Shown here: in pieces, positions 16,200-64,000 of the stretch
How positions within the stretch are numbered: the first letter of the stretch is position 1
Layout of the letters: each line of letters opens with the position of its first letter
Origin: Candidatus Magasanikiibacteriota bacterium
GTDB taxonomy: Bacteria; Patescibacteriota; Patescibacteriia; Magasanikbacterales; UBA922
DNA length: 64,000 nt
Direction: 5' to 3'
Assembly: GCA_003482855.1 (NCBI GenBank)
Contig: DMXO01000002.1
Coordinates: 28,060 to 92,059, forward strand
Position numbers and translations under genes: made by a program
The notes under the pieces: generated by a model
What the model was told of the DNA's origin: nothing
What the model saw: the letters and a program-made list of their open reading frames with translations, nothing else
Database searches by the model: none

Positions 16200-16228
16200 T
16201 TGACAAAAACATATAAATTTGCTAACTT
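16200..16228 (+). promoter_or_regulatory. Sigma70-like promoter P1 of GC-rich island A (TTGACA-17-TAACTT)
   Basis: Perfect -35 hexamer, exactly 17-nt spacer, TAnnnT -10. Confidence 0.45.
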
Positions 16229-16276
16229 AATGTCCGTATTCATCCGCCAAATGGTGGGTTTCTCAAAGGAGGACCG

Positions 16277-16489
16277 ATGTCCCAGGACTCGCGCCACCGC
16301 CAGATCAGGCTCGTGACCCCCAACCCCCGCCGGAACGAGGTCAACACGCATATGTGCGAGCTGACCACCTGTGTCTGTCGCGGCAGGCGGGCAGCGTTGA
16401 CCTTCCGTCATGTGGAAGGCACACTCGCTTGGCTCTGCCCGAGCGCCAGCCGGCAGATCGACGCCACCACCTCGCGGCGGGTGGGCTGA
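16277..16489 (+). CDS. Island A gene 1: small Cys-containing protein (70 aa), unknown function
   Basis: AAGGAGG SD 4 nt upstream of ATG. High GC with G/C-rich third positions, in contrast to the AT-rich backbone. Cys at CELTTCVC and WLCP. Confidence 0.5.
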   Translation: MSQDSRHRQIRLVTPNPRRNEVNTHMCELTTCVCRGRRAALTFRHVEGTLAWLCPSASRQIDATTSRRVG

Positions 16490-16502
16490 CAAGGTCAACA
16501 GA

Positions 16503-16621
16503 GCCACAAGTCGAAGGAGGGAACGGTTTTGCAAGCGTGTATGCACGCCTTCAAAACCCAAAAGCCTATATGGCACACAAGGGAGGACGCATCGCTTGTA
16601 GATCCGCGTCCTCCTTCGACT
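16503..16621 (+). other. Structured inverted-repeat element unit 1 (agtcgaaggagg ... cctccttcgact)
   Basis: Perfect 12-bp terminal inverted repeat enclosing about 90 nt with internal hairpins. Left arm contains an SD-like GAAGGAGG. Begins right after the stop codon of gene 1. Confidence 0.55.
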
Positions 16622-16682
16622 ACTATCTTCAGCAAAATGATGAGAATAGTAGTAAAAACCACTCCAAGTAGTACTCGGCGTG

Positions 16683-16711
16683 GTTTTTTTGTTGACAAAT
16701 TCTTCTCTATA
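16683..16711 (+). promoter_or_regulatory. Sigma70-like promoter P2 of island A (TTGACA-17-TAATCT)
   Basis: Perfect -35, 17-nt spacer, TAnnnT -10. Embedded in an AT-rich spacer between the two GC-rich genes. Confidence 0.45.
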
Positions 16712-16762
16712 CATTAATCTCTCACTTGTCGCTTCAACCGCCATCACCACAGGAGGTGAAAG

Positions 16763-17161
16763 ATGGCAGGTAGCATGGTTTCGGTGAACATGGTACTCAT
16801 GGGCAAAGACTTCCAGATGGAAGTCACTGGGGTTCTCCACTCGTCGCGTGCGATGCGACAGAATGGGGGATCCCGACGTGGGACCGTCCTGATCGGCCGG
16901 ATCATCCAGGGCGAGATGACCGTGATGGACGAGGTGTGGGTGCTCAGGAACTTCGACCCCAACACCGAACCGATCCACGACAGGGTCATCAGGATCGAGA
17001 CCAGTCGAGCCTCCAGAGACAAGGCTGGCGTGAACACGATGGTCGGGGTCTGTCTGAGTGTCTCTTCCATGGGCGACATCATCGGGCGCGCGGCCGCCCG
17101 CGCCTACGACGCGGCTATGATCGAGCAGCGGCGCCAGATGCCGCCGCGTCCGGTGGCGTAG
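16763..17161 (+). CDS. Island A gene 2: 132-aa protein resembling a standalone EF-Tu domain-II-like beta-barrel
   Basis: AGGAGGTG SD 4 nt upstream. GTVLIGRIIQGEMTVMDEVWVL ... RVIRIETSRASRDKAGVNTMVGVCLSV pattern parallels EF-Tu domain 2 (GTVVTGRVERG..VG.EVEIV ... AGDNVGVLLRGV). High GC3. Confidence 0.5.
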   Translation: MAGSMVSVNMVLMGKDFQMEVTGVLHSSRAMRQNGGSRRGTVLIGRIIQGEMTVMDEVWVLRNFDPNTEPIHDRVIRIETSRASRDKAGVNTMVGVCLSVSSMGDIIGRAAARAYDAAMIEQRRQMPPRPVA

Positions 17162-17280
17162 CCACAAGTCGAAGGAGGGAGTGGTGACGATGGCAACAGC
17201 CTCAATCACCGCACGGCCCGATATTACATCGGGCAACGCAACAAGGAAGGCGCGTACGTTCATCGCGCCCTCCTTCGACT
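17161..17280 (+). other. Structured inverted-repeat element unit 2 (same 12-bp arms as unit 1)
   Basis: Starts at the stop codon of gene 2. Same gccacaagtcgaaggaggga left end and cctccttcgact right end as unit 1, with a different interior that has its own hairpins. Contains ATG 17190 after the SD (37-codon ORF running into AT-rich DNA). Confidence 0.55.
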
Positions 17281-17312
17281 GTTTTGATTATCAAATTTGG
17301 TAATAAGAATAG

Positions 17313-17344
17313 CAAAAAGAACCCTTAGTAAGGGTTCTTTTTAA
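17313..17344. terminator. Bidirectional hairpin terminator (agaaccctt agta agggttct + T-run)
   Basis: 9-bp stem with 4-nt loop flanked by A and T runs. Confidence 0.55.
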
Positions 17345-17359
17345 TGCGCTTATTTCTGT

Positions 17360-24319: not shown

Positions 24320-24345
24320 AAAAAATCCACGCTATATACGTGGAT
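24320..24345 (-). terminator. Rho-independent terminator of GC-rich cassette B (atccacg ctatata cgtggat + T-run on minus strand)
   Basis: Perfect 7-bp stem, 7-nt loop, followed on the minus strand by TTTTTT. Confidence 0.6.
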
Positions 24346-24391
24346 CTATGTTGGAAACTAAGAGGGCTGTGGACGCTGCGATTGTAGCCCT

Positions 24392-24730
24392 CTACTTGTT
24401 GCCGGCCTCGGCGAATTCACGGAGCAGGGACATGGCGAGATAGCCCGCGAGCCACCCGACCTGTCCCATGCCAGTGCGCCGACTGTCGACGTCATGGAGC
24501 ATCCGCCCGACGATCTCCTCGACCGTCTGGAGACCCGGCGAGAATGTTATCGCATCCTGCGAACGCATCTCGATGAACTGAGCGGCCTCCTCCTCACTGT
24601 GGAAGAACCATCTCATGAGCTTGGGGAGAAGGTGCTCGGGAACAAAACTCTCCTTGAACCGGGAGAGGCACCCTTGCGCCAGCTCGTAGCGCGCCCCTGT
24701 CGTGAGCTTACCGATCGCGTCCATGGGCAT
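24392..24730 (-). CDS. GC-rich cassette B gene: 112-aa hypothetical protein
   Basis: High-GC ORF with G/C-rich third positions, flanked by a consensus-like promoter and terminator. No recognisable family. Confidence 0.45.
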   Translation of the reverse strand: MPMDAIGKLTTGARYELAQGCLSRFKESFVPEHLLPKLMRWFFHSEEEAAQFIEMRSQDAITFSPGLQTVEEIVGRMLHDVDSRRTGMGQVGWLAGYLAMSLLREFAEAGNK

Positions 24731-24776
24731 TTATCCAATTTCCATCGCAGCGCCCTCTTAATTTCCAAAACATGAC

Positions 24777-24805
24777 TTTATATCATGATTAATACAAAAA
24801 GTCAA
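24777..24805 (-). promoter_or_regulatory. Sigma70-like promoter of cassette B (TTGACT-17-TATAAA, minus strand)
   Basis: Read on the minus strand: TTGACT at 24805-24800, 17-nt spacer, TATAAA at 24782-24777. Confidence 0.45.
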
Positions 24806-24907
24806 TAGTAAACATATATTTCAAACTATCTATATGGGATTTACAACTCCACTCTTCTCACCTATAATACACCACAATATAATACTCTATATTCATATAT
24901 AAATCTT

Positions 24908-34838: not shown

Positions 34839-34950
34839 TATTCGGGGATCGTCCCGCGTAAAGTTCGCTTCGCTCACCACGCGGCAAGAATAGCTCATAG
34901 TACGTTTCTAGTCTTGTCGCGTGGCGGTCGTAGTAGATCGCTTTACGTGA

Positions 34951-35021
34951 TCGGGGATCGTCTAATGGTAGGACTTTGGGTTCTGGTCCCAACTATCGGG
35001 GTTCAAATCCCTGTCCCCGAG
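34951..35021 (+). tRNA. tRNA-Gln (anticodon CUG)
   Basis: Manual cloverleaf: acceptor tcgggga/tccccga, D-arm gtct-aatggta-ggac, anticodon arm ttggg-ttCTGgt-cccaa, T-arm cgggg-ttcaaat-ccctg (T-loop TTCAAAT), discriminator G. Confidence 0.7.
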
Positions 35022-35083
35022 CCCAGTACCGTACGGTACTGGGCGAGCCACCAACGAGTGGTTTGCCTGGTACGTATGAAAGT

Positions 35084-39399: not shown

Positions 39400-40344
39400 C
39401 TACTTGAGTGGAATTTTTTTGAGGATATTTTTTAATTCTTCCAGTGTACTTATTTTCATCAATTCTTGTCTCAACGCTTTCATACCAGATATGCCCTTGA
39501 AATAATGGGCTAGATGCTTCCTAAATGTAACAAGATTTCCATAGTATTGTTCATGCAGCTTCGCATGTTGCAAAACTACATCAATAATATCTTGAAGTTG
39601 GGGATATTTGGATATTTGGATATTTGGATATTGTTGAAATATCCATGGATTCCCTAGCGATCCACGCCCAATCATGACCCCATCAGCACGAGTGACTTCC
39701 AAACAATGTTTCATATCTTCTCTTGTTACTATATTTCCATTTGCAATGACGGGAATTTTTACTAATTCCTTTACTTTCCCTATCATCTCCCAATTTGCTA
39801 CACCAGAATAACCTTGGGATTTTGTCCTACCATGTATAGAAATAAGATCAGCCCCAGCCTGTTCAAGTTTTGGGGCAAACTCTAATATTTCATCATCTTT
39901 TGACCATCCCAGCCGCGTTTTTATACTCACTGGAACGCCCAAATTTGCGTTTTTGAGAGCTTTTACTATGGCAATGGCTCTATCATGGTCTTTCATGAGA
40001 GCCGCGCCAGAATCGGCCTTCCCTGCAATCTTGGGAACAGGACAACCCATATTCACATCTATACCATCTGGCTTATACTTTGTTACTATAATTTCTGCTG
40101 CCTTTTGTATCCTTTTAGGATCTGCACCAAACAACTGCAAAATAATTAGCCTTTCACCCATATCAAATTCACACATTTTCAATGTTTTTTCATTTCCCCT
40201 TACAATCGCTTCTGCACTTACCATTTCACGAAAAATGACAAAATTATTTCCAGAAACCTCCCGACAAATACGACAAAACGGTCCATCAGTCATATCGGCC
40301 ATAGGGGCAAGAACAATTATCGGTTTTTTGTCAAACCACGTCAT
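39400..40344 (-). CDS. dus: tRNA-dihydrouridine synthase
   Basis: LAPMADMTDGPFCRICRE, DVNMGCP, FMN-binding TIM-barrel motifs. Confidence 0.88.
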   Translation of the reverse strand: MTWFDKKPIIVLAPMADMTDGPFCRICREVSGNNFVIFREMVSAEAIVRGNEKTLKMCEFDMGERLIILQLFGADPKRIQKAAEIIVTKYKPDGIDVNMGCPVPKIAGKADSGAALMKDHDRAIAIVKALKNANLGVPVSIKTRLGWSKDDEILEFAPKLEQAGADLISIHGRTKSQGYSGVANWEMIGKVKELVKIPVIANGNIVTREDMKHCLEVTRADGVMIGRGSLGNPWIFQQYPNIQISKYPQLQDIIDVVLQHAKLHEQYYGNLVTFRKHLAHYFKGISGMKALRQELMKISTLEELKNILKKIPLK

Positions 40345-41156
40345 AAAGGACTTTTGATCTTTTTTAAATTTGGATTTGTTACATGCGTATATATTTGTGT
40401 TGTTTTTATGCTTGCGTGGCCGAGAAGTTCTTGTACAAAACGCACGTCTACGCCATCTTCCAGCAAATGTGTTGCAAAACTATGTCGGAGCGAATGAAAC
40501 GTTGCTTGTTTTTGTATTCCTATTTTTGCAAGCGCGACTTGAAATATTTTTTGAGGCGTTGCTGATGTTAATTTGCCCCCTCGTTCACTTTCAAAGACAA
40601 AATCCTCTCCTTTTTTACATGCCATAATATCCTTCAGATCTGGAATCAATGATTCTGATAATGTGGTTATCCGATCTTTTCTCCCCTTTCCACCTCGTAT
40701 TGTTATTACTTTTTCAAATATATCAATATCTCGTACACGCAAAGAAATTAATTCACTTACACGGAATCCGGATCCGTATGAAATAGCGAGCATGAGTCTA
40801 TGTTTTTTATTTTTTGGCGCGGAAATAATAGATACTATTTCATTTCTATTCAAAACAACAGGCAATGCTTTGTTCCTTTTTGGCATGCGAAATGGTATGA
40901 AATCCGCACGCTGGTATAATTCTCTATACAAAAAATTAAGTGCATTCGCATACAATGCAACCGTTTGGGGCGCAGAACCGCCATCTTTTTTATTCAATAA
41001 ATATAGCTCTATCTCATCCCGAGAAATATCTTTTGGTGGTTTTCCGAGTGCACGATATATATCCTTATATACATTTGTATATGCCTCTATAGTTCGCGGG
41101 CTATAATTGATTAGCCTCATTTTTTGTGTTACTATATCTATAAGATTTTTTTGCAT
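40341..41156 (-). CDS. Tyrosine recombinase, XerC/XerD-like (phage integrase family)
   Basis: R..HxxR..Y catalytic residues (HSLRHSFATHLL...LGHASIKTTQIYTHV). Stop overlaps the dus start by 4 nt. Start chosen at MQKNL. Confidence 0.8.
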   Translation of the reverse strand: MQKNLIDIVTQKMRLINYSPRTIEAYTNVYKDIYRALGKPPKDISRDEIELYLLNKKDGGSAPQTVALYANALNFLYRELYQRADFIPFRMPKRNKALPVVLNRNEIVSIISAPKNKKHRLMLAISYGSGFRVSELISLRVRDIDIFEKVITIRGGKGRKDRITTLSESLIPDLKDIMACKKGEDFVFESERGGKLTSATPQKIFQVALAKIGIQKQATFHSLRHSFATHLLEDGVDVRFVQELLGHASIKTTQIYTHVTNPNLKKIKSPL

Positions 41157-41269
41157 ATTCAGACAATAAATATTCAGTATAATATACCAAAATGGACTAT
41201 TATACAAGAACATTCCGTATAACTGCTAGTTATGTGAAATTGTGGCAAAACTTAAATGAAGTAAAGGGT

Positions 41270-48548: not shown

Positions 48549-48561
48549 AAAATCTACATCA

Positions 48562-48590
48562 TAAAACTCCCATCTAAGGGAGTTTTTATT
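48562..48590. terminator. Hairpin terminator (aaactccc atctaa gggagttt + T-run)
   Basis: 8-bp stem followed by TTATTTTT. Confidence 0.55.
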
Positions 48591-48669
48591 TTTGAACCGG
48601 CGCCGCTTCGATCGCCGGTTATTTGTGCGTTCAAAGCGGCGGTGCTCTTTGCATGCCGCATCCTTTCCG

Positions 48670-49158
48670 TCAGCCCGCCGCGTTGTACACGACGAGGATG
48701 ATGGTCGCCAGCGTGTGCAGGTACTCCGCACGCACGACCACAGTGAACTGGGACGAGTCGTTCACCGACCAGATCGGAAATCGACGGTCGACGGGAAATT
48801 CGTCCCCTTCGGCCTGCTTACCACGAAGGTCATAGACCCCCGGGATGGTCGCGCGCCAGAAGGGAACCACGTTGCCCGGGTTGAGCACGCGATCCGAGAC
48901 GACCGAGACGACCCATTCCGTACTGTCGTGGTACAGTCGGGTCATGGTGATTTCGATCCCCTTGTGGGAGATGCGCGCGATCGGACGGACGAACCCACCG
49001 AGCACACGCTGTCCGATCACTTCGGGTTCCCCGATCTTGAGTGGCCAGGACAGTGTGGACTGTTGCTCGAACGCCTTTTCCACCGTCCTCACTGCCATGA
49101 TGTCGGGATGGGTGCTGTTGCACCTTACGACCCACTGACTGAGCTTCTTGGGGGACAT
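48670..49158 (-). CDS. GC-rich cassette D gene: 162-aa hypothetical protein
   Basis: High-GC/high-GC3 ORF. AAGGAGAA SD 4 nt upstream of ATG 49158. Own promoter and hairpins (48595-48641) after the stop. The track ORF begins 10 codons earlier. Confidence 0.5.
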   Translation of the reverse strand: MSPKKLSQWVVRCNSTHPDIMAVRTVEKAFEQQSTLSWPLKIGEPEVIGQRVLGGFVRPIARISHKGIEITMTRLYHDSTEWVVSVVSDRVLNPGNVVPFWRATIPGVYDLRGKQAEGDEFPVDRRFPIWSVNDSSQFTVVVRAEYLHTLATIILVVYNAAG

Positions 49159-49202
49159 ATTCTTCTCCTTTCCCCCACGTTGACACACACAAAGAGCATT
49201 TC

Positions 49203-49231
49203 AAAATATCATTACTAAGTGATATTGTCAA
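49203..49231 (-). promoter_or_regulatory. Sigma70-like promoter of cassette D (TTGACA-17-TATTTT, minus strand)
   Basis: Perfect -35, 17-nt spacer, TAnnnT -10. Confidence 0.45.
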
Positions 49232-49301
49232 GCTAAATAATAAAATAAAAAACAACGCCCTTGAAGCGTTATTTTTATCTATTCTAAATCTGTGCAAAAT
49301 G

Positions 49302-51965: not shown

Positions 51966-54116
51966 TTACTTTAGATCCTCCATACGAGGTTTACGTCCAC
52001 CCAAAAATAATCTATTTCCATGATGGTGGAACCATGGCACGACAAACCGCAACATAACACGAGTGATAGTGATAGCAGTAAACATACTCATGAGAACACC
52101 AACGGACAAGGTCACCGCAAATCCTTTTACAAAGCTCGTACCAAGCCAAATAAGGAGCACACAGCTAATGAGTGTAGAAATATTGCTATCGCGAATAGAA
52201 GTCCATGCACGAACAAATCCTTCTTCTACACCAGCCTTGAGACTTTTACCTTCTTTCAATTCTTCTTTGAGACGCTCAAATATAAGGACATTTGCATCTA
52301 CGGCCATACCAATAGACATAATGAAGCCAGCAATACCCGCAAGCGTCAAGGTAACCCCTATCAATTTGAATACTGCGAGTGTCAATGCAATATAGAGAGA
52401 TAATGAAATAACAGAAAGCAAACCAGGTAATCTATAGTACAACAACATAAACACCATGATGAGTAATACACCTACTACACCAGCATATAGACTCTGAGTA
52501 AGTGATTTACTACCGAGTGTTGCACCAATAGTTTGCTGTGACACGAGACTTATTGGCACAGGCAAAGCACCTGCATTCAGTCGTTGAGACAATAGTTGAG
52601 CTTCTTTTACATTGAAGCTACCGGTAATTACTGCGCGTCCATCCATGATAGCTGTCTGTACAACAGGCGCGCTAATGACATTGCCATCAAGGAATATAGC
52701 AACCTGTTTACCTACATTTCGTGAAGTAATGTCAGCAAATAAATCCTTACCTTCATCATCAAAGTTGAGCGCTACTTGCACTGAGCCTGTCTGTGGGTCA
52801 GATACGACTTCGGAACGATCCAGTTGTTTGCCTGACAAAGCAGTATTCTTCCATGTATCTTGGGGAGGTACGATATCACTCTCACTTTGTGTCTGAATCA
52901 AGATTCTCCATAGTTCATATTCTTTTGTCGTACGTTCATCACGTTTGTAAATAATGTGAAAACCAAAATCTGTTTCTACAGGTCCAATGATTTGTCCCTT
53001 TTCTGCTTGGAATACTGCTGTCTCAAATGCAGGTATCATGACACCGGTGCCAAACCAACCAAGGTCTCCACCATTTTCAGATACGCTTGGATCAGTAGAA
53101 TTTTCTTTGGCAAGCATTTCAAAATTTTCAGCGTTTGCTGTGTTGTATAATTCTTGAGCTTTGGCGCGTGCCTCGTCCTTGTTGTATATAGGATTATTAC
53201 ATCCTTGAGCGCCAAGATAACAAATCAATATGTGGCTGGCTTGTACTTCTTTGCCACCATCTCGCTCAGCACCACGTTTGAGGATGTTGTATCCTTGTAC
53301 AGACTCTACCAATGTTTGGCTCGTAGTACCTTCAGAAGCACTTACTGCCCATTCATACAGTTCTGTGTATGCAGAGTTGGACCCCACATAATTCATATAG
53401 CCTCCATTATTTTTACTTGCTTGATCTTCTGATACTTCACGCGCAACTGCTTCAATATTTTCTCCATTTTTTATTCTTTTCAAAATATCTTGCGCACGCT
53501 TTTTTGCGTCAGCATTATATTCATCCATTTGTTTTTGTTCTTCTGCAGTAAGTTCGCGAGGTGGCTCAGTATTTTCTTCTTTAAATTCCAAAATAGGAGT
53601 ACCACCAATCATGGCAATTGCCTGCTCTACATCAGTCACACCAGGAAGCTCGACAACAAGACGATATGCATCGCTCACTTTTGTTGTCTGCACTTGTGGT
53701 TCAGATACGCCCATACCGTTCACACGTCGCTCGATAACATCACGCACACCTTCTACTGCTGAACCTTTTTCTTCTTGAGTAAGCGCAGTGGTATCTGCCT
53801 CATACACGAGATGCGCGCCACCCTGCAAATCAAGACCAAGTTGAAATTCTTTTTCAGGTACGCGTGGCAGACCAAGCTTGATAGTATCATTGACCCAATC
53901 AATGCCTCTATTGAAACTGCTTGGACTCACGAAAATAACTGATACAAAAAGAAGGGCAAATATGCCCGCTATCCCCCATCTAATTTTTCCGCGAATATCT
54001 GTTTTTACCATAGTATCTAAATGAGCTTGAGAAAATCTGCCCAAGGCAGACATGTCTACCAAAGGCAGACTTGTAATAACGTGCCTTATTGTATCTTTTT
54101 TTGTAGAAAAGGTCAA
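51966..54116 (-). CDS. secD: Protein translocase subunit SecD with two inserted parvulin (PpiC)-type PPIase-like domains in the periplasmic region
   Basis: LDLQGGAHLVYEAD P1 motif and FLDGNVISAPVVQTAIMDGRAVITGSF P1 base are present. Between them lie NNGGYMNYV...YNILKRG and NGGDLGWF...FGFHIIYKRD parvulin signatures. C-terminal 6 TM. Confidence 0.8.
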   Translation of the reverse strand: MTFSTKKDTIRHVITSLPLVDMSALGRFSQAHLDTMVKTDIRGKIRWGIAGIFALLFVSVIFVSPSSFNRGIDWVNDTIKLGLPRVPEKEFQLGLDLQGGAHLVYEADTTALTQEEKGSAVEGVRDVIERRVNGMGVSEPQVQTTKVSDAYRLVVELPGVTDVEQAIAMIGGTPILEFKEENTEPPRELTAEEQKQMDEYNADAKKRAQDILKRIKNGENIEAVAREVSEDQASKNNGGYMNYVGSNSAYTELYEWAVSASEGTTSQTLVESVQGYNILKRGAERDGGKEVQASHILICYLGAQGCNNPIYNKDEARAKAQELYNTANAENFEMLAKENSTDPSVSENGGDLGWFGTGVMIPAFETAVFQAEKGQIIGPVETDFGFHIIYKRDERTTKEYELWRILIQTQSESDIVPPQDTWKNTALSGKQLDRSEVVSDPQTGSVQVALNFDDEGKDLFADITSRNVGKQVAIFLDGNVISAPVVQTAIMDGRAVITGSFNVKEAQLLSQRLNAGALPVPISLVSQQTIGATLGSKSLTQSLYAGVVGVLLIMVFMLLYYRLPGLLSVISLSLYIALTLAVFKLIGVTLTLAGIAGFIMSIGMAVDANVLIFERLKEELKEGKSLKAGVEEGFVRAWTSIRDSNISTLISCVLLIWLGTSFVKGFAVTLSVGVLMSMFTAITITRVMLRFVVPWFHHHGNRLFLGGRKPRMEDLK

Positions 54117-54153
54117 GCAAACTTAGCCACACTATATATACATATATACAGCA

Positions 54154-54182
54154 TTGACAAAATGGCATTTTTGTGATATTAT
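54154..54182 (+). promoter_or_regulatory. Sigma70-like promoter of cassette E (TTGACA-17-TATTAT)
   Basis: Perfect -35, 17-nt spacer, 5/6 -10. Confidence 0.5.
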
Positions 54183-54214
54183 CGCCACGGATTTTCCACC
54201 ACGTGAGGCCAAAA

Positions 54215-54367
54215 ATGGCCACGACCACGACCCTCGTGTGCATGGAGTGCGGACACCCGGAGATGGAGGTCATCGAATACGGTGACCACGAGGAACGGGT
54301 CAAGTGCCCCAAGTGCGGGCACGAAGCCTCGGTTCCCCCGGGCGCTCAGCCCGGTACTCCGGTCTAG
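54215..54367 (+). CDS. GC-rich cassette E gene: 50-aa zinc-ribbon mini-protein
   Basis: GAGG SD 6 nt upstream. CMEC...(18 aa)...CPKC. Strongly G/C-biased third codon positions. The track ORF start at 54173 lies inside the -10 box, so ATG 54215 is preferred. Confidence 0.5.
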   Translation: MATTTTLVCMECGHPEMEVIEYGDHEERVKCPKCGHEASVPPGAQPGTPV

Positions 54368-54393
54368 CACCGGACAAAACACCCCACACGCGG

Positions 54394-54502
54394 CCCCGGG
54401 CAATCGTGCCCGGGGATGATGTCATGAAAAACCACCCAATGACTATCTGAGTTCTCAACGTATATTTGAGAATTGGGATAGGAGGTTTGGGTGGTTTTTT
54501 GT
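54394..54502. terminator. Hairpin ccccgggca atcg tgcccgggg plus long bidirectional terminator (aaaaaccaccca ... tgggtggtttttt)
   Basis: 9-bp perfect GC stem directly after cassette E. 12-bp A/T-flanked stem serving both cassette E and the secA 3' end. Confidence 0.55.
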
Positions 54503-54540
54503 TGTCTAATTTATCTTCTATTTTTATTCGTCATTTCGCA

Positions 54541-57417
54541 TTACGCCCCATGGCACTTCTTATACTTCTTTCCACTTCCGCACGGACATGGATCATTGCG
54601 CCCTACTTTGTTGCCTGAATCATCTCTGGTTTTGCCTTTCACGATACCTGCCTCGCCATCACTTGTCTTTTGTGCGCCTTTGAGTGTCATCTTGTCATCA
54701 GCCATGATACTTGGTGTGAGTTGCAAACCAACATTTATCTTAAAAACCGTATAGGCAACATCTTTTTGAATATTGGCAAGCAATTGATTGAACAGATGAA
54801 AACTTTCTTGTTTGTATTCGACAAGTGGATCACGCTGACCATACCCACGCAGACCAATACCCTGACGCAAATAATCTATAGCCACGAGATAATCAACCCA
54901 CAAATTATCTATAGTACGAAGCAAAATACTTTTTTGAATTTCTGCCTGTATCTGGTGTGGCTCTTGTACACCTGCTGTCTGTTGTGCAATAGCTTTCATG
55001 AATTCGCTATATTGATGACGCGCTTTGGCTACGAGAAATGATATGAGAGCATCTCGTCTCTCCACGTCACTCTTGTTGTCACTCCCTGATTGTCCAAAAG
55101 ACAAAATTTCTTGCCTATCTTCTGCTGACAAAGGAAACATTGTTTTTATGGTCTCATATATTTCTTTTACATTCCAATCATACTTATTCACTGCGCTATC
55201 TCCATTTGCATCTGTCTGTGGATTGGTATGATATGACACAACAAATTCAATCTCACCTTCTATCATCTCCATGACCATGTCATGAAGCGATTGATATGAG
55301 AGGTCATTTGTATCTTCCAAATTTGTTGTTGGTTGTGATGCAGTCTCTACGTCACCATCAATAATATTTGTTGATTCTTTTTTTGCTAAATCAAGAATTT
55401 TTCTTCTTTTCTTATAAATTACCTCGCGCTGTTTATTGAGGACGTCATCATATTCAAGCAAATGCTTGCGCGTATCAAAATGAAATGATTCCACTTTTTT
55501 CTGAGCGCTTTCGAGCATACGCGTAATAAATTTTTGTTCAATAGGCATATCCTCAGGCACTTTGAGCCTAGTCATCATGGACTTGAGCCTGTCTCCAGCA
55601 AAAATACGCATGAGATCATCCCCTGTTGATACAAAGAATTGGGTCTCACCGGGGTCGCCCTGACGCGCGCTACGACCGCGAAGCTGATTGTCTATACGAC
55701 GAGATTCATGGCGTTCTGTACCCAGTACAAAGAGACCGCCAGCATCTTTAATCTTTTGTTCATCTTCTTTTGTCGCTCCCGGTCCGCCAAGCTTGATATC
55801 CACACCACGCCCAGCCATATTAGTTGCAAGAGTCACTGCTCCTGCACGACCAGCTTGTGCAATTATTTCACCTTCTCGTTCATGATTCTTTGCATTGAGA
55901 ATCTCATGTTGTATGCCATTGATGAGGAGATATTGACTAAGTTCTTCATTTTTTTCTACAGAAATAGTACCAATAAGTACTGGTTGACCTTTGGTTTGAC
56001 ATTCTTTCAATTTTTCTATAACTGCCTTGTACTTACCTGCCTCAGTTCTATAAATACGATCAGAGTGATCTATACGCTGGTCAGGACGATTGGTAGGTAT
56101 GACTACGACTTCGAGTCCATAAATTTTATAAAATTCTTCTTCTTCGGTCTTGGCAGTACCCGTCATGCCAGACAATTTTTTGTACATGCGAAAAAGATTT
56201 TGAAATGTAATCGTTGCAAGTGTACGGCTCTCACGCTGAATTGCGACATTTTCTTTTGCCTCGATTGCCTGGTGCATGCCTTCGGAATATCTGCGACCTG
56301 GCATCTTGCGACCAGTAAATTCATCAATGATAATAATCTCGCCATTGTCTACAATATAGTCTTTGTCGCGTTTGAAGAGTACTTCTGCTTTGAGTGCCTG
56401 CTCTACATGGTGCACGAGCTGTATGCCTCCCTCAACATAAAGATTGTCTACATGCAACCAATTTTCAAATTTGGAAATACCTACATCAGTAAGTGTTGAC
56501 GCCCGCATCTTCTCATCCACATTATAATCTTCGCCTTCCTTGAGTTGTTTCACCCATTTGGCAAATTGATAATATTGTTCAGTCGCTTCTTCTGCTGGCG
56601 CGGATATGATGAGTGGCGTACGTGCTTCATCTACAAGTATGGAATCTATTTCATCGACAATCGCATAATGCATTTCTGATCCTGGTCGCATGACCATTTC
56701 ATCAAGACTCTGCACCATGTTGTCACGTAGATAATCAAAACCAAATTCATTATTGGTACCATACGTGATATCACAACGATACGCTTCTTGTCTGCTCGCT
56801 GTTCTCAAAAATTCATTTTCTACTTTAAAACTTCCTTTCTCGACTTCGGACTTCGGACTTCGGACTTCAACCACCTCATCGGAATCTGAAGTCTGATTGC
56901 TGAAGTCTGAAGTCTGTTGGCTATCATACACAAACGACACGCGCTGATTTTGAATAATACCAACTGATAACCCCAAAAAATCATAGATCTTCCCCATCCA
57001 CACTGCATCACGTTTTGCCAAATAATCATTCACGGTCACGACATGTACGCCTCTGCCTTCAAGAGCATTCAAATATACTGGCAAGGTTGCGGTAAGTGTC
57101 TTGCCTTCGCCAGTTCTCATCTCAGCAATCCTGCCCTGATGAAGTGCAATGCCACCAACAAGCTGTACATCATAATGGCGCATGCCCATGACGCGCTTGG
57201 TTGCTTCACGTACCGTAGCAAAACTTTCGGGCAATAGATCATCCAAAGACTCGCCTTCTGCAAGACGTTTCTTGAATTCAGACGTCTTGGCTTTCAATGC
57301 ATCATCAGACAATTTTTCAAATTCTGGCTCAAGACTATTTATTTTGGCAACAAGGGGATCAAATACTTTGAGCATTTTTTTGTTTTGATCACCAAAAATT
57401 TTATGAAGAAAAGACAT
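54541..57417 (-). CDS. secA: Protein translocase ATPase SecA
   Basis: 958 aa, DEAD-like motor motifs, C-terminal zinc finger [14 protein letters not shown]. Confidence 0.93.
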
Positions 57418-57550: not shown

Positions 57551-57579
57551 TTGACTTTTTACCATTTTTAGTGTACTTT
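57551..57579 (+). promoter_or_regulatory. Sigma70-like promoter P1 of island F (TTGACT-17-TACTTT)
   Basis: 5/6 -35, 17-nt spacer, TAnnnT -10. Confidence 0.4.
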
Positions 57580-57613
57580 ATGGGCAGAACTTTAACCCTT
57601 TGGGGGTCCTCCA

Positions 57614-57877
57614 ATGGTCAGGAACAACTGCCCCGCATGCGGGGCACAGGTCGAACACGGCACGCTCTGTGGCGCGTGCGGTCACCGGCTGGGTGAAGAA
57701 CCCGGCAACCGGCACTGCACGTGCACTGGCAACGTCTGCGTCCGCCTCCGGACGCAGATCGTCGTCCGCACGGTCGAGGTCGCTACGACCAAGGCCGACG
57801 GGACGGTGGTGCCCCACGGTACCGCCAGCTTCCTCTACGACCCCACGACCGGCCGGTCGCACCTGACGACCGGCTGA
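57614..57877 (+). CDS. Island F gene 1: 87-aa zinc-ribbon protein
   Basis: CPACG...(8 aa)...CGACG N-terminal zinc ribbon, additional CTCTGNVC. High GC3. GGGGG SD-like 7 nt upstream. Confidence 0.45.
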   Translation: MVRNNCPACGAQVEHGTLCGACGHRLGEEPGNRHCTCTGNVCVRLRTQIVVRTVEVATTKADGTVVPHGTASFLYDPTTGRSHLTTG

Positions 57878-58021
57878 CCCTCTGTCCCGCGCCCGACGCT
57901 CCCCGCGTTCGTGGGCCGGCGCGTGCTGTTCTGCGTATTTCGTGCATCAGCCCCCCTGGTGCATGAGGTACGTAGACGCGCGCGCCGGCCCTCCTTCCTC
58001 ATTATTAAACCAAAGTTACTC

Positions 58022-58050
58022 TTGACAAAGAGTGACTTTTTTGTTATTAT
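58022..58050 (+). promoter_or_regulatory. Sigma70-like promoter P2 of island F (TTGACA-17-TATTAT)
   Basis: Perfect -35, 17-nt spacer, 5/6 -10, in an AT-rich spacer between the two GC-rich genes. Confidence 0.5.
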
Positions 58051-58080
58051 CCGCCCGCTTCAAACAACCCGGGGTTCAAG

Positions 58081-58239
58081 ATGTACTGTGCCCACTGCGG
58101 CCTCATGCTCGTCATCGATATCGAAGGACATTGCCCCATCTGCGGGACAAAAATCGATGAGGCGTCGCCCTATGTGATGCCTGCGAGGCCGCCGATCGAC
58201 ACCGCCCCTACCCCCTCCGGACAGGGACAACATACCTAG
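58081..58239 (+). CDS. Island F gene 2: 52-aa zinc-ribbon mini-protein
   Basis: CAHCG...(12 aa)...CPICG, Pro-rich tail. High GC3. Confidence 0.45.
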   Translation: MYCAHCGLMLVIDIEGHCPICGTKIDEASPYVMPARPPIDTAPTPSGQGQHT

Positions 58240-58304
58240 TATCTTGCGTACGGAATTGAACATTCCAACGCGAGTGTATGTTCGTCCCGTTCATCCCTAA
58301 AATC

Positions 58305-58336
58305 AAAACCACCCTAAAAAATCGGGTGGTTTTAAA
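58305..58336. terminator. Bidirectional terminator (aaccaccc taaaaaat gggtggtt + T-run)
   Basis: 8-bp stem flanked by A/T runs. Serves island F and the hpf 3' end. Confidence 0.55.
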
Positions 58337-63497: not shown

Positions 63498-63603
63498 ATT
63501 CTAGAACAAAGATATTCTCAATCCCAGAACTCCTCGGTGTGATGTGGCACACCGGAAAATCTCCTTCCTTATACCCGCCCACATGCGGGCGTCTCCCGAC
63601 CTC

Positions 63604-63807
63604 TTACGGCTTGGGCGCCTCGCCAGTGGCACCCTTCGCCGGTTCTTCCACTGTCTCCTTCGGGGGAGACGGCGGACGAGGCGAGGACACATGTGTCTTG
63701 CCCGCATGGCGAGCCCTCGTGGCTGCGAGGCCACAGAGCCCGTCGAGCTGACGCTCGGGCCGTGCAGGGCCGTGCCCGAACTTGGTGAAGCCAGAACCCG
63801 GCTTCAT
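63604..63807 (-). CDS. Island G gene: 67-aa Pro-rich small protein, translationally coupled (ATGA overlap) to the upstream partial gene
   Basis: High GC3 ORF. Its ATG overlaps the TGA of the partial CDS 63804-64000. Confidence 0.35.
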   Translation of the reverse strand: MKPGSGFTKFGHGPARPERQLDGLCGLAATRARHAGKTHVSSPRPPSPPKETVEEPAKGATGEAPKP

Positions 63808-64000
63808 TTCTTACCCTTTCCGCGAGCCCGTCTGAGGGCTCGAGACACATCCGTCAACGGAAACCGACCCAATACCTCTGGTTCGCGATTCCAGATGGTG
63901 TTGTGGTCGTAGACGACCACCGTTTCTCCACCACTCTTGTGCACATCAGCGACATCATCGAGTCGCACTGCGCACCGTTCGAAGTGGGGACGGCGGTTGT
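63804..64000 (-). CDS. Island G partial CDS (C-terminal 65 codons; gene continues beyond the window end)
   Basis: Open minus-strand frame ...HKSGGETVVVYDHNTIWNREPEVLGRFPLTDVSRALRRARGKGKK* with no stops and high GC. Confidence 0.4.
   Translation of the reverse strand, partial: NRRPHFERCAVRLDDVADVHKSGGETVVVYDHNTIWNREPEVLGRFPLTDVSRALRRARGKGKK

What the first reader, a model, noticed from the sequence alone, without database searches (positions are those of the whole stretch)
54154..54502. Cassette E: 50-aa zinc-ribbon gene with a near-perfect promoter wedged between secD and secA
TTGACA-17-TATTAT, then GAGG SD, then MATTTTLVCMECGHPEMEVIEYGDHEERVKCPKCGHEA... (CxxC-18-CxxC), then a 9-bp GC hairpin. 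It sits in the short gap between two essential translocase genes. Small zinc ribbons of this kind occur as ribosomal and RNAP accessory proteins, anti-sigma factors or nucleic-acid-binding modules. The extreme G/C third-position bias contrasts with every neighbouring gene.
Basis: seen in the sequence. Interest (0 to 1): 0.6.

Follow-up and report, generated by a model that had tools for sequence, protein, structure and literature searches.

The report
GC-rich orphan zinc-ribbon mini-gene
Between secA and secD of an uncultured groundwater bacterium (a relative of Candidatus Magasanikbacteria) sits a real, self-contained gene for a 50-residue zinc-ribbon protein with no relatives, one of a set of G+C-rich mini-genes with ribosome-binding sites in a genome whose own genes are A+T-rich and lack such sites.

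Summary
A TTGACA-17-TATTAT promoter, a GAGG ribosome-binding site, a 50-codon ORF (54215-54367, CxxC-18-CxxC) and a 9-bp GC hairpin lie in the 424-bp secA-secD gap. The stretch is identical in five independent groundwater assemblies, so it is not a chimera.

The ORF looks coding: GC by codon position is 0.66/0.50/0.82, two CxxC motifs arise by chance in about 5 of 100,000 shuffles, and the single-sequence model (pLDDT 84) is a zinc ribbon. The protein is acidic and an orphan. It has no homologue in billions of proteins and passes no curated family cut-off except one generic ribbon model, marginally.

The wider pattern is more notable. It is one of eight G+C-rich islands in a 40% GC window. Native genes here lack Shine-Dalgarno sites (0/34; 9/207 clade-wide, equal to background), whereas about 14 of 19 island ORFs have one. 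Three sister cassettes have syntenic orthologues in a relative (SecA 81% identical) and keep about 80% G/C at fourfold sites after the same synonymous turnover as secA. The composition is therefore maintained, not fading.

Function is not shown. I infer a protein-binding accessory factor. Expression is untested.

The parts
54154..54182 (+). Sigma-70-type promoter of cassette E: -35 TTGACA (54154-59), 17-nt spacer, TG-extended -10 TATTAT (54177-82). The predicted transcription start is near 54189.
   Evidence: 11/12, TG present; joint best in 17 kb. (only 4 such sites in 64 kb against about 2.6 expected). No expression data.
54189..54214 (+). G+C-rich 5' leader of about 26 nt with the Shine-Dalgarno GAGG (54205-08) 6 nt before the ATG. 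A small hairpin, GGCC-AAAAAU-GGCC, spans the start codon.
   Evidence: The transcription start is inferred from the -10 position.
54215..54367 (+). Coding sequence for a 50-aa acidic zinc-ribbon protein, MATTTTLVCMECGHPEMEVIEYGDHEERVKCPKCGHEASVPPGAQPGTPV, with cysteines at 9, 12, 31 and 34.
   Evidence: GC by codon position 0.66/0.50/0.82. CxxC pair by chance 9/200,000. Pfam Zn_ribbon_Nudix 26.5 bits against cut-off 25.6. AlphaFold2 pLDDT 84 with three strands. pI 4.84, charge -5.3.
54394..54415 (+). 9-bp G+C hairpin in the 3' untranslated region with no U-tract. Probably a stabiliser of the RNA 3' end rather than a terminator.
   Evidence: inverted repeat I6. A weak, sub-threshold match to CRISPR-DR29 (24 bits against 39) is judged to be a chance hairpin match.
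54427..54502 (.). Long composite hairpin: outer stem AAAAACCACCCAA/TTGGGTGGTTTTT, inner stem CTATCTGAGTTCTCAA/TTGAGAATTGGGATAG, with an A-run on one side and a T-run on the other. It is a bidirectional intrinsic terminator shared by cassette E (+) and secA (-).
   Evidence: I1, I2. Partly alignable with the secA-downstream terminator of L065. The AAACCACY...GTGGTTTT type is found only at cassette ends in the window.
54088..54116 (-). Context: the secD promoter TTGACC-17-TACAAT, divergent from the cassette E promoter with 37 bp between the two -35 boxes. It implies that secD starts at the ATG at 54053 rather than the TTG at 54116.
   Evidence: The promoter block is conserved in L086. The JGI gene call gives 695 aa.
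57551..58335 (+). Sister cassettes F1 (87-aa ORF, 57614-57877) and F2 (52-aa ORF, 58081-58239). Both are G+C-rich zinc-ribbon genes with G-rich SD-like leaders, divergent from secA. They are used here to date and characterise the class.
   Evidence: Syntenic orthologues in L086 and L006. F2 promoter 11/12.
48560..49235 (-). Sister cassette D: a 162-aa G+C-rich orphan ORF (48670-49158) with a TTGACA-17-TATTTT promoter and an AAAGGAG SD.
   Evidence: Orthologue in L086 and L007, 39% identical by tblastn and 41% over aligned columns.
16200..17345 (+). Sister cassettes A (70-aa ORF, 16277-16489) and B (132-aa ORF, 16763-17161) in tandem. Each has a TTGACA promoter fused to the preceding terminator, a strong AGGAGG-type SD, and a 3' hairpin of about 110 nt with shared stems GTCGAAGGAGG/CCTCCTTCGAC.
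24321..24850 (-). Sister cassette C: a 112-aa G+C-rich ORF (24392-24730) bracketed by the inverted repeats GGAAACTAAGAGGGC / GCCCTCTTAATTTCC, so its leader could pair with its trailer.
63501..64000 (-). Sister island G, which runs off the window end. It holds a 67-aa ORF (63604-63807) and a second ORF upstream of it.

Best explanation
Cassette E is a genuine, autonomously expressed protein-coding mini-gene of the symbiont's chromosome.

Proposed mechanism, all inferred from sequence:
- A strong sigma-70-type promoter, back to back with the secD promoter, starts a transcript of about 310 nt near 54189.
- A GAGG site 6 nt upstream of the AUG recruits the ribosome to a G+C-rich, strongly folded mRNA.
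- The product is a 5.35-kDa acidic (pI 4.8) protein whose four cysteines bind one zinc ion in a three-stranded zinc ribbon, followed by a proline-rich tail.
- A 9-bp GC hairpin protects the 3' end, and transcription stops at a long bidirectional terminator shared with the convergent secA.

Because the protein is acidic, tiny and has no catalytic features, I infer that it acts by binding a partner protein rather than nucleic acid. It would be a modulator or inhibitor, in the manner of small prophage zinc-binding proteins.

Shown by comparison: it occupies a variable 'slot' between core genes that holds different accessory cargo in each Magasanikbacteria-like lineage. It belongs to a clade-restricted class of G+C-rich orphan mini-genes, most with a Shine-Dalgarno site, whose composition is actively maintained inside an A+T-rich genome that does not otherwise use such sites.

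The SD site is probably needed because such folded G+C-rich messages cannot use the A/U-rich, SD-independent initiation of the native genes. This too is an inference.
For: Contiguity: the 424-bp gap is identical in five assemblies.

Expression signals in the right order and spacing: promoter, SD, terminator.

Coding signature:
- GC by codon position 0.66/0.50/0.82.
- CxxC-18-CxxC by chance 9/200,000.
- Zinc-ribbon profile hits.
- A confident single-sequence fold, pLDDT 84.
- Acidic charge.

Variable slot: the secA-secD spacing ranges from about 0 to 4.4 kb in relatives, holding Nudix, four-helix-bundle and SET-like genes, other G+C-rich small ORFs, or nothing.

Class properties:
- Eight islands of about 0.6 GC in a window of 0.40 GC.
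- Native genes without SD: 0/34 in the window and 9/207 in the clade, against a background of 5%.
- Cassette ORFs with SD: about 14/19 against 11.5% background in G+C-rich sequence.
- Orthologues of D, F1 and F2 in L086 have dN/dS 0.34-0.58 and conserved cysteines.
- At fourfold sites, the cassette orthologues are 0.46 identical (chance 0.34) with 80-81% G/C in both lineages. SecA is 0.44 identical with 39% and 14% G/C.
- No homologues of D or F1 outside the clade.
- Cassette coding regions fold at -0.32 to -0.56 kcal/mol per nt against -0.13 to -0.20 for three native genes. Against synonymous-codon shuffles, E scores z = -2.1.
Against: - There is no transcript, ribosome-profiling or peptide evidence.
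- E has no homologue anywhere, so purifying selection cannot be tested for E itself. No gene caller annotated it in any of the assemblies listed.
- Its SD is only 4 nt.
- The promoter match alone is within chance expectation for 64 kb.
- The protein-binding role rests only on charge and size. Foldseek and PDB searches give nothing significant.
- That E shares the history of D, F1 and F2 is an extrapolation from shared anatomy.
- Whether this organism's 16S rRNA carries an anti-SD could not be checked. Some Parcubacteria lack it (PMC9297842).
Confidence: 0.6

Rival explanations
1. Recent horizontal acquisition. E is a moron-like gene captured from a G+C-rich, SD-using donor (a host bacterium, its phage or a plasmid) and is still unameliorated. 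It may be neutral or only transiently useful.
For: - Composition, codon usage and SD use are all foreign to the native genes.
- The nearest relative (L086/L007) has a different gene in the slot and no E.
- The weak best hits are to prophage small zinc-binding families: ECs_2282 at 28.6 bits, YnfU, and the Lar-like PHROG at E=4e-4.
- Patescibacteria live attached to other cells and can take up DNA. This is general knowledge and was not tested here.
Against: - No donor homologue was found in 5.8 billion clustered proteins, in an exhaustive search of 1.84 billion representatives, or in viral contigs and phage genomes, although these collections include the same aquifer metagenomes.
- There are no target-site duplications or terminal repeats.
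- The promoter is of the symbiont's own A+T-rich consensus type.
- Sister cassettes with identical anatomy are as old as the species split and have not ameliorated.
Confidence: 0.2
2. The functional product is an RNA, not a protein. The G+C-rich island would be a structured small RNA, for instance one acting through its convergent overlap with the secA 3' end or through promoter interference with secD. The ORF would be incidental, since open frames are common in G+C-rich DNA.
For: - The transcript folds far better than shuffles, z = -6.9.
- G+C-rich islands in A+T-rich genomes are often RNA genes; the island at 34901-35070 is tRNA-Gln.
- Several long frames are open on both strands of the island.
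- The E and secA transcripts would be complementary across the 75-nt shared terminator.
Against: - Codon-position periodicity is strong, with GC3 well above GC2.
- The CxxC pair is very unlikely by chance.
- The SD is at the correct distance from the ATG.
- The peptide is predicted to fold.
- No Rfam family matches, even at E=10, beyond a chance hairpin match.
- Orthologues of the sister cassettes show dN/dS below 1 with invariant cysteines.
- Much of the folding z-score comes from the terminator hairpins.
Confidence: 0.1
3. Assembly artefact: a fragment of a G+C-rich organism joined by mistake into the symbiont contig.
For: - There is an abrupt compositional change over about 250 bp.
- Two independent contigs end inside G+C-rich cassettes: L005 at window 54393 and L169 at 58210.
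Against: - The sequence across both junctions is identical in five assemblies made with different assemblers from different runs.
- The insert is shorter than a read pair.
- Native promoter and terminator elements interlock with it.
Confidence: 0.02

Closest known systems
Small stand-alone bacterial zinc-ribbon proteins (FmdB family, TIGR02605 / Pfam Zn_ribbon_8; Zn_ribbon_Nudix module)
   Same: About 50 aa with a CxxC-(17-19)-CxxC layout, 'CG' after each knuckle and a beta-ribbon fold. It matches these profiles over residues 8-38.
   Different: It scores below the curated cut-offs (21.8 against 31.3 bits; 22.2 against 34.4 bits). Only the generic Nudix N-terminal ribbon is marginally above its cut-off (26.5 against 25.6), and no Nudix domain is attached. 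It lacks the family's C-terminal features and has no detectable homologue.
Prophage-encoded small zinc-binding proteins (ECs_2282 family NF047912, YnfU family NF038384, Lar-like restriction-alleviation proteins PHROG 6422)
   Same: Tiny, cysteine-knuckle accessory proteins encoded as single genes with their own signals. These are the best-scoring named families: 28.6 bits, 19.9 bits and E=4e-4. The inferred mode of action, binding and modulating a partner protein, is borrowed from Lar.
   Different: All scores are below cut-off. There is no prophage context, no phage homologue by sequence and no significant structural match.
Phage 'morons' and genomic islets: autonomous promoter-ORF-terminator units of atypical composition inserted between conserved genes
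   Same: A self-contained transcription unit of atypical G+C in a variable slot between core genes, encoding an orphan product.
   Different: It lies in a chromosome and not in a prophage. In the sister cassettes the atypical composition persists through speciation instead of ameliorating. The unit also uses a translation-initiation signal that the host's own genes do not use.
Integron gene cassettes
   Same: Small, mostly orphan ORFs of atypical composition, each followed by an imperfect inverted repeat of variable length (cassettes A, B and F1 have 3' hairpins of about 95-115 nt). Some occur in tandem.
   Different: Each cassette carries its own promoter. E has only a 22-nt hairpin. I saw no GTTRRRY/RYYYAAC core sites by eye in the cassette 3' regions. 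There is no integron integrase. The cassettes are dispersed and syntenic between species.
SD-led genes in lineages that largely do not use Shine-Dalgarno sites. I recall work on Bacteroidia in which the anti-SD is sequestered and a few genes such as rpsU keep an SD; this is a lead from memory and was not checked here.
   Same: A small minority of genes with clear SD sites in a genome whose genes otherwise lack them.
   Different: Here the SD-led genes are also compositionally distinct, orphan and fast-evolving. Whether the anti-SD exists or is sequestered in this organism is unknown.

Membership tests
Zinc-ribbon fold (structural class) | Two CxxC (or CxxH) knuckles about 15-20 residues apart that bind one zinc ion | tested here: met
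   C9/C12 and C31/C34 give CxxC-18-CxxC. The chance rate is 9/200,000. Zinc binding itself was not tested.
Zinc-ribbon fold (structural class) | A three-stranded antiparallel beta-sheet carrying the knuckles | tested here: met
   The single-sequence AlphaFold2 model has pLDDT 84 with strands at 17-22, 27-30 and 37-40. The top, non-significant Foldseek hits are the eIF5, eIF2-beta and Rpb9 ribbons.
FmdB family zinc ribbon (TIGR02605 / PF09723) | Score at or above the curated cut-off of the family model | tested here: not met
   21.8 bits against 31.3 and 22.2 bits against 34.4.
Zn_ribbon_Nudix (PF14803) | Score above the gathering cut-off, and an N-terminal position in a Nudix hydrolase | tested here: inconclusive
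   26.5 bits against 25.6, which is marginal. No Nudix domain follows, as the ORF ends after 50 aa. Nudix genes occur in the same slot in L008 and L012, but without a ribbon.
   None is among the 25 best of 46 weak Pfam hits. RpoP scores E=1.7 and S27e E=0.2-1.7 in the PDB sequence search. NCBIfam S27e scores 15.6 bits against 70.
ECs_2282 / YnfU prophage zinc-binding proteins | Score at or above the NCBIfam cut-off | tested here: not met
   28.6 bits against 37, and 19.9 bits against 36.
Lar-like restriction alleviation protein (PHROG 6422) | A profile match together with a phage or prophage context | tested here: inconclusive
   E=4e-4, 21.7 bits over residues 4-39 of a 120-position profile. 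There is no phage context. A Lar-family BFVD model ranks 43rd at E=0.77.
Integron gene cassette | An attC recombination site (imperfect inverted repeat of at least about 55 nt with R''/R' core sites) at the 3' end | tested here: not met
   E has only a 22-nt perfect hairpin followed by a terminator. No attC covariance model was available, so the judgement rests on length and on inspecting the sequence.
Integron gene cassette | An integron integrase (IntI) with its specific extra domain nearby | tested here: not met
   The only tyrosine recombinase in the window (40341-41213) scores 206.5 bits against 265 for TIGR02249, matches only profile positions 2-178, and fits Xer-type models equally well.
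Transposable element, MITE or insertion sequence | Terminal inverted repeats and a target-site duplication at the insert borders | tested here: not met
   Only a 16-nt, 75% identical A+T-rich direct repeat 420 nt apart, with no terminal inverted repeats.
Recently transferred genomic islet | Atypical composition and codon usage | tested here: met
   GC 0.57-0.66 against 0.40, and GC3 0.82 against 0.31-0.35.
Recently transferred genomic islet | An identifiable donor lineage or homologues outside the recipient clade | tested here: not met
   None was found. The same holds for sister cassettes D and F1.
Known anti-phage defence proteins (PADLOC) | A profile match | tested here: not met
   Only E values of 0.008 or weaker, to the zinc-finger segment of Cas12f models.
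Known RNA family (Rfam 15) | A covariance-model match at the gathering score | tested here: not met
   No match in 54100-54560. The best is CRISPR-DR29 at 24 bits against 39, on the hairpin.

The most novel reading that the evidence does not exclude
The G+C-rich mini-genes with Shine-Dalgarno sites, E among them, may form a dedicated second expression class in a lineage whose normal genes are A+T-rich and initiate without such sites. Their messages would be built for a different translation regime. That regime could be a sub-population or state of the symbiont's own ribosomes with an accessible anti-SD, giving a condition-specific regulon of small, fast-evolving effector proteins. More radically, it could be the ribosomes of a G+C-rich, SD-using host cell after transfer of RNA or DNA. 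Either reading would explain why synonymous sites stay about 80% G/C through speciation, why the whole transcribed unit but not its promoter is G+C-rich, and why the products are clade-restricted and evolve fast.
Probability: 0.12. Interest if true: 0.85.

Novelty: new variant of a known kind. Interest (0 to 1): 0.55.

Why it matters
Taken alone, E is one more orphan zinc-ribbon micro-protein that gene callers miss. It was not annotated in any of the assemblies whose gene calls were listed.

Its interest lies in the class it reveals. An ultra-small symbiont genome appears to hold two gene architectures side by side: native genes that are A+T-rich and lack Shine-Dalgarno sites, and mini-genes that are G+C-rich, mostly SD-led, strongly folded, orphan and fast-evolving. 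The mini-genes keep their composition against the genome's mutational drift.

If this holds genome-wide it would do three things:
- Flag a pool of unannotated candidate effector or regulator proteins in candidate-phyla-radiation bacteria.
- Give a concrete handle on how translation starts in lineages reported to have lost or sidelined the anti-SD (PMC9297842).
- Pose a clear evolutionary question: what selects for G/C at synonymous sites in a subset of genes.

I found no description of this in the literature searches I ran.

Tried and rejected
Homologue searches for E, all empty:
- Exact-product look-ups for the 50-aa and 64-aa forms.
- Exact DNA scan of genome contigs.
- Word-indexed protein search.
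- Exhaustive phmmer search: only 5 weak hits, to long proteins with several zinc fingers.
- IMG/VR scan and tblastn against phage genomes.

Family libraries gave only generic zinc-ribbon hits (Pfam, PHROGs, NCBIfam, PADLOC). Structure searches gave nothing with E below 0.08 (PDB and BFVD by Foldseek, PDB by sequence).

Other leads that went nowhere:
- The AlphaFold2 model of sister protein D was too poor to use (pLDDT 54), so I did not search with it.
- An integron reading was rejected (and inspection of the hairpins).
- A transposon reading was rejected.
- Rfam gave only tRNA-Gln.

Dating argument: I first argued from Nei-Gojobori dS values that the sister cassettes could not be ameliorating. 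A back-of-envelope model showed that raw codon identity did not exclude amelioration. I therefore redid the test on fourfold-degenerate sites with composition-corrected chance identity, and that test does exclude it.

Anti-SD: I looked for the genome's 16S rRNA 3' end. None of the 172 fetched loci holds it. The 10-kb extensions on either side of the window show only protein-coding gene calls and no further G+C-rich island.

The metagenome and genome scans with SecA found no relative closer than 79% (best-segment identity), so strain-level presence/absence and dN/dS for E itself could not be obtained.
Full report
WHAT IS THERE

- Promoter: TTGACA at 54154-54159, a 17-nt spacer, and TATTAT at 54177-54182 with a TG just upstream.
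- Ribosome-binding site: GAGG at 54205-54208, 6 nt before the ATG at 54215.
- ORF: 50 codons ending in TAG at 54365-54367. It encodes MATTTTLVCMECGHPEMEVIEYGDHEERVKCPKCGHEASVPPGAQPGTPV, with cysteines at 9, 12, 31 and 34 (CxxC-18-CxxC).
- Hairpin: a perfect 9-bp GC hairpin at 54394-54415.

Two corrections are needed. First, no T-run follows the hairpin, so it is not the terminator. The terminator is a long two-tier hairpin at 54427-54499 with an A-run before it and a T-run after it. It can stop transcription in both directions and is shared with secA, whose stop codon is at 54541 on the other strand. Second, the TTG start listed for secD at 54116 lies inside a conserved secD promoter, TTGACC-17-TACAAT at 54116-54088. 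That promoter is also present in the nearest relative. The E promoter and the secD promoter are therefore back to back, with 37 bp between their -35 boxes.

IS IT MORE THAN CHANCE?

- The promoter scores 11 of 12 and is, with one other site, the best in 17 kb. Four such sites occur in the 64 kb against about 2.6 expected, so only its placement is meaningful.
- Two CxxC motifs in 50 residues arose in 9 of 200,000 shuffles that keep composition at each codon position.
- G+C by codon position is 0.66/0.50/0.82. This is the pattern of a real coding sequence, and it contrasts with GC3 of 0.31 for secD and 0.35 for secA.
- AlphaFold2, without an alignment, gives a three-stranded ribbon at mean pLDDT 84.

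I conclude that the ORF is very probably a real gene.

IS IT REALLY PART OF THIS GENOME?

The exact SecA protein is encoded on contigs of up to 540 kb from several groundwater metagenomes. The 424-bp secA-secD gap is identical, base for base, in five assemblies from different runs and assemblers: L001, L002, L003, L004 and L168. The organism is a relative of Candidatus Magasanikbacteria (Patescibacteria). Its best SecA matches in the genome and metagenome scans were 79% (best-segment identity). A chimera is excluded. None of the gene calls listed for these assemblies annotated the ORF.

WHAT IS THE PROTEIN?

It is an orphan.
- The word-indexed search of 5.8 billion clusters found nothing.
- The exhaustive search of 1.84 billion representatives found only five weak hits, to long proteins with several zinc fingers.
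- Viral contigs and phage genomes gave nothing.

Profile libraries report only generic zinc-ribbon similarity:

| Model | Score | Cut-off or E-value |
|---|---|---|
| Zn_ribbon_Nudix | 26.5 bits | 25.6 |
| FmdB family | 21.8 bits | 31.3 |
| ECs_2282 family | 28.6 bits | 37 |
| YnfU family | 19.9 bits | 36 |
| Lar-like PHROG | 21.7 bits | E=4e-4 |

Fold searches against PDB and BFVD give no significant match. The nearest are translation-factor and RNA-polymerase ribbons and many uncharacterised small phage proteins.

The protein is 5.35 kDa, has pI 4.84 and a net charge of about -5. That charge argues against direct nucleic-acid binding and for a protein partner. This is an inference.

THE SURROUNDINGS CHANGE THE PICTURE

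E is one of eight islands of about 0.6 G+C in a window of 0.40 G+C. One island is tRNA-Gln. The other seven islands hold eight cassette ORFs, labelled A, B, C, D, E, F1, F2 and G.
- Those inspected in detail have an A+T-rich consensus promoter.
- The leader is G+C-rich and carries a canonical or G-rich Shine-Dalgarno-like motif in all but cassette C, whose motif is weak.
- The ORFs are 50-162 codons long with GC3 of 0.71-0.87.
- G+C-rich 3' hairpins precede a terminator.
- E, F1 and F2 are zinc ribbons.

Native genes look different. None of 34 long native ORFs in the window has an SD-like tetramer at -16 to -4. Across 24 Magasanikbacteria-like loci the rate is 9 of 207 (4.3%), equal to the random background of 5.0%. 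About 14 of 19 cassette ORFs, here and in relatives, have such a site, against 11.5% expected in G+C-rich sequence. That count was made partly by hand, and start choice was partly guided by the motif.

A native small zinc-ribbon gene just outside the window (L167 16067-16231, LysW-like) is A+T-rich and has no SD. Small size and a zinc ribbon therefore do not explain the difference.

ARE THE CASSETTES RECENT IMPORTS?

For the sister cassettes the answer is no.
- D, F1 and F2 have orthologues at matching positions next to the same core genes in L086, whose SecA is 81% identical over the full alignment. By tblastn they are 39%, 51% and 47% identical, with dN/dS of 0.34-0.58 and invariant cysteines.
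- Looser F1 relatives with the same C-terminal ...GR(S/K)H(L/C)TTG motif sit next to secA in L018.
- Neither D nor an F1 profile finds anything outside this clade.

Fourfold-degenerate sites give the dating.

| Genes compared (window vs L086) | Identity at fourfold sites | Chance identity | G/C at those sites (window / L086) |
|---|---|---|---|
| SecA | 0.44 | about 0.25 (my estimate from base composition) | 39% / 14% |
| Cassettes D, F1, F2 | 0.46 | 0.34 | 80% / 81% |

The cassettes have therefore turned over about as much as secA since the split. A simple relaxation model, starting from an ancestor with 100% G/C, predicts at most about 0.70 and 0.57 by now. This model is my own calculation from the numbers. 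The composition is therefore held in place, by selection or by a gene-specific bias. Island G+C also tracks genome G+C with a roughly constant offset of about +0.18 across relatives. That fits a balance between mutation pressure and a maintaining force.

E itself has no orthologue, so the inference for E rests on shared anatomy.

THE SLOT

secA-secD adjacency is conserved in the clade. The spacing from the end of secA to the first SecD match ranges from about 100 bp, which is effectively adjacent, to 4.4 kb. The cargo varies.
- L086 and L007 hold a four-helix-bundle gene.
- L008 and L012 hold Nudix genes.
- L010, L013 and L102 hold a small membrane peptide with a conserved leader hairpin and a GGGAGG SD.
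- L081 holds a 72-aa G+C-rich ORF.
- L065 holds a 113-aa G+C-rich ORF. It is antisense to secA and ends at a terminator partly alignable with the one here.

The region upstream of secA is a second hot spot. L086 carries four or five tandem zinc-ribbon mini-genes there.

HOW IT PROBABLY WORKS

All of these steps are inferred from sequence.
- A sigma-70-type promoter drives a transcript of about 310 nt.
- The G+C-rich message is strongly folded. The whole transcript scores z = -6.9 against dinucleotide shuffles. The coding region alone scores z = -2.1 against synonymous-codon shuffles, at -0.44 kcal/mol per nt compared with -0.13 to -0.20 for native genes.
- A folded message of this kind would need an SD to be translated in a cell whose other messages rely on unstructured A/U-rich leaders.
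- The product is a zinc-ribbon micro-protein that binds a partner.
- The GC hairpin stabilises the 3' end, and the shared terminator ends both E and secA.

The fast evolution and clade restriction of the class suggest a role in conflict or host interaction, but nothing here shows that.

RIVALS

- Recent transfer (0.2). It fits the foreign look and the weak similarity to prophage zinc-binding proteins. It lacks any donor, any insertion scars and any support from the sister cassettes.
- An RNA-only function (0.1). It fits the strong folding. It does not fit the codon periodicity, the cysteine pattern, the SD, or the constraint seen in sister orthologues.
- An assembly artefact (0.02). It is excluded by the five concordant assemblies, although two contigs do end inside cassettes (L005 at 54393, L169 at 58210).

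An integron reading fails. There is no attC-like site at E, each cassette has its own promoter, and the only recombinase is Xer-like and below the integron-integrase cut-offs.

WHAT I COULD NOT DO

- There are no expression data.
- The 16S rRNA 3' end of this genome was out of reach. [quoted passage not shown]
- No relatives closer than 79% SecA identity (best-segment) were available, so E's own selective constraint and its presence or absence among strains are unknown.

VERDICT

Taken alone it is a modest finding. It is also a clear example of an apparently undescribed class of G+C-rich, mostly SD-led mini-genes that keep their composition inside an A+T-rich symbiont genome without native SD sites. 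That class deserves a genome-wide and experimental follow-up.

Noticed in passing
whole window; relatives L006-L155: Native genes have no Shine-Dalgarno sites (0/34 in the window; 9/207 across Magasanikbacteria-like loci, equal to the 5% random background). Only the G+C-rich cassette ORFs carry them.
   Followed up: yes
window 16200-17345: Cassettes A and B lie in tandem. Each ORF is followed by a hairpin of about 110 nt with shared ends (CCACAAGTCGAAGGAGGGA ... CCTCCTTCGAC) and an unrelated interior. The 5' arm contains a perfect AAGGAGG, which in B is followed by a possible second small ORF. The terminator T-run of one unit runs straight into the -35 of the next (GTTTTTTGTTGACAA occurs three times).
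   Followed up: partly
window 24321-24850 (-): Cassette C (112-aa ORF) is bracketed by the inverted repeats GGAAACTAAGAGGGC / GCCCTCTTAATTTCC, so the 5' leader could pair with the 3' trailer of its own transcript.
   Followed up: no
window 57551-58335; L086 8700-9900; L006 2200-3050: The hpf-secA gap is a second hot spot. The window has two zinc-ribbon mini-genes (F1, F2) and L086 has four or five. F1 proteins share a conserved C-terminus, TGRSHLTTG. At the F1/F2 junction the terminator hairpin holds the -35 box of the next promoter in its loop, an arrangement conserved in L086. F1 has the strongest excess folding of any cassette ORF tested (z = -5.2 against synonymous shuffles).
   Followed up: partly
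window 16654-16688, 54427-54499, 58305-58333: Terminators of the type AAAAACCACY...GTGGTTTTT occur only at cassette 3' ends in the window (pattern count 3, against 0.01 expected). They recur at cassette ends in L086, L006 and L065.
   Followed up: partly
window 54393 and 58210: Two independent public contigs end inside G+C-rich cassettes: L005 in the E hairpin and L169 in the F2 ORF. The cause could be a coverage drop at GC hairpins or strain-level variation in the cassettes.
   Followed up: no
window 34842-35070: tRNA-Gln(CUG) at 34951-35023 sits in a G+C-rich island with flanking hairpins. An 11-nt copy of its 5' end (CGGGGATCGTC) lies about 100 nt upstream. This could be chance or a trace of an integration event.
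   Followed up: no
window 40341-41213 (-): A tyrosine recombinase scores just under the XerA/integron-integrase model (217.6 bits against 220) and below the integron-integrase subfamily cut-off (206.5 against 265, N-terminal part only). It is probably the Xer recombinase of the chromosome.
   Followed up: partly
window 54040-54074 (-): A tandem 16-nt repeat (CCCAAGGCAGACATGT / CCAAAGGCAGACTTGT) with internal palindromes spans the likely true secD start (ATG at 54053), downstream of its conserved promoter. It could be a regulatory site.
   Followed up: no
L167 16067-16231 (about 4 kb beyond the window's right end): A native 54-aa LysW-like zinc-ribbon gene next to a Nudix gene is A+T-rich (0.38) and has no SD. 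It is a useful internal control, showing that small zinc-ribbon genes need not be G+C-rich here.
   Followed up: yes
L009 8569-9255: In a relative, the secA-downstream slot holds a 228-aa, very acidic, G+C-enriched ORF with an AGGAGG SD and a TTGACT-17-TATATT promoter. The class is therefore not limited to micro-proteins.
   Followed up: no
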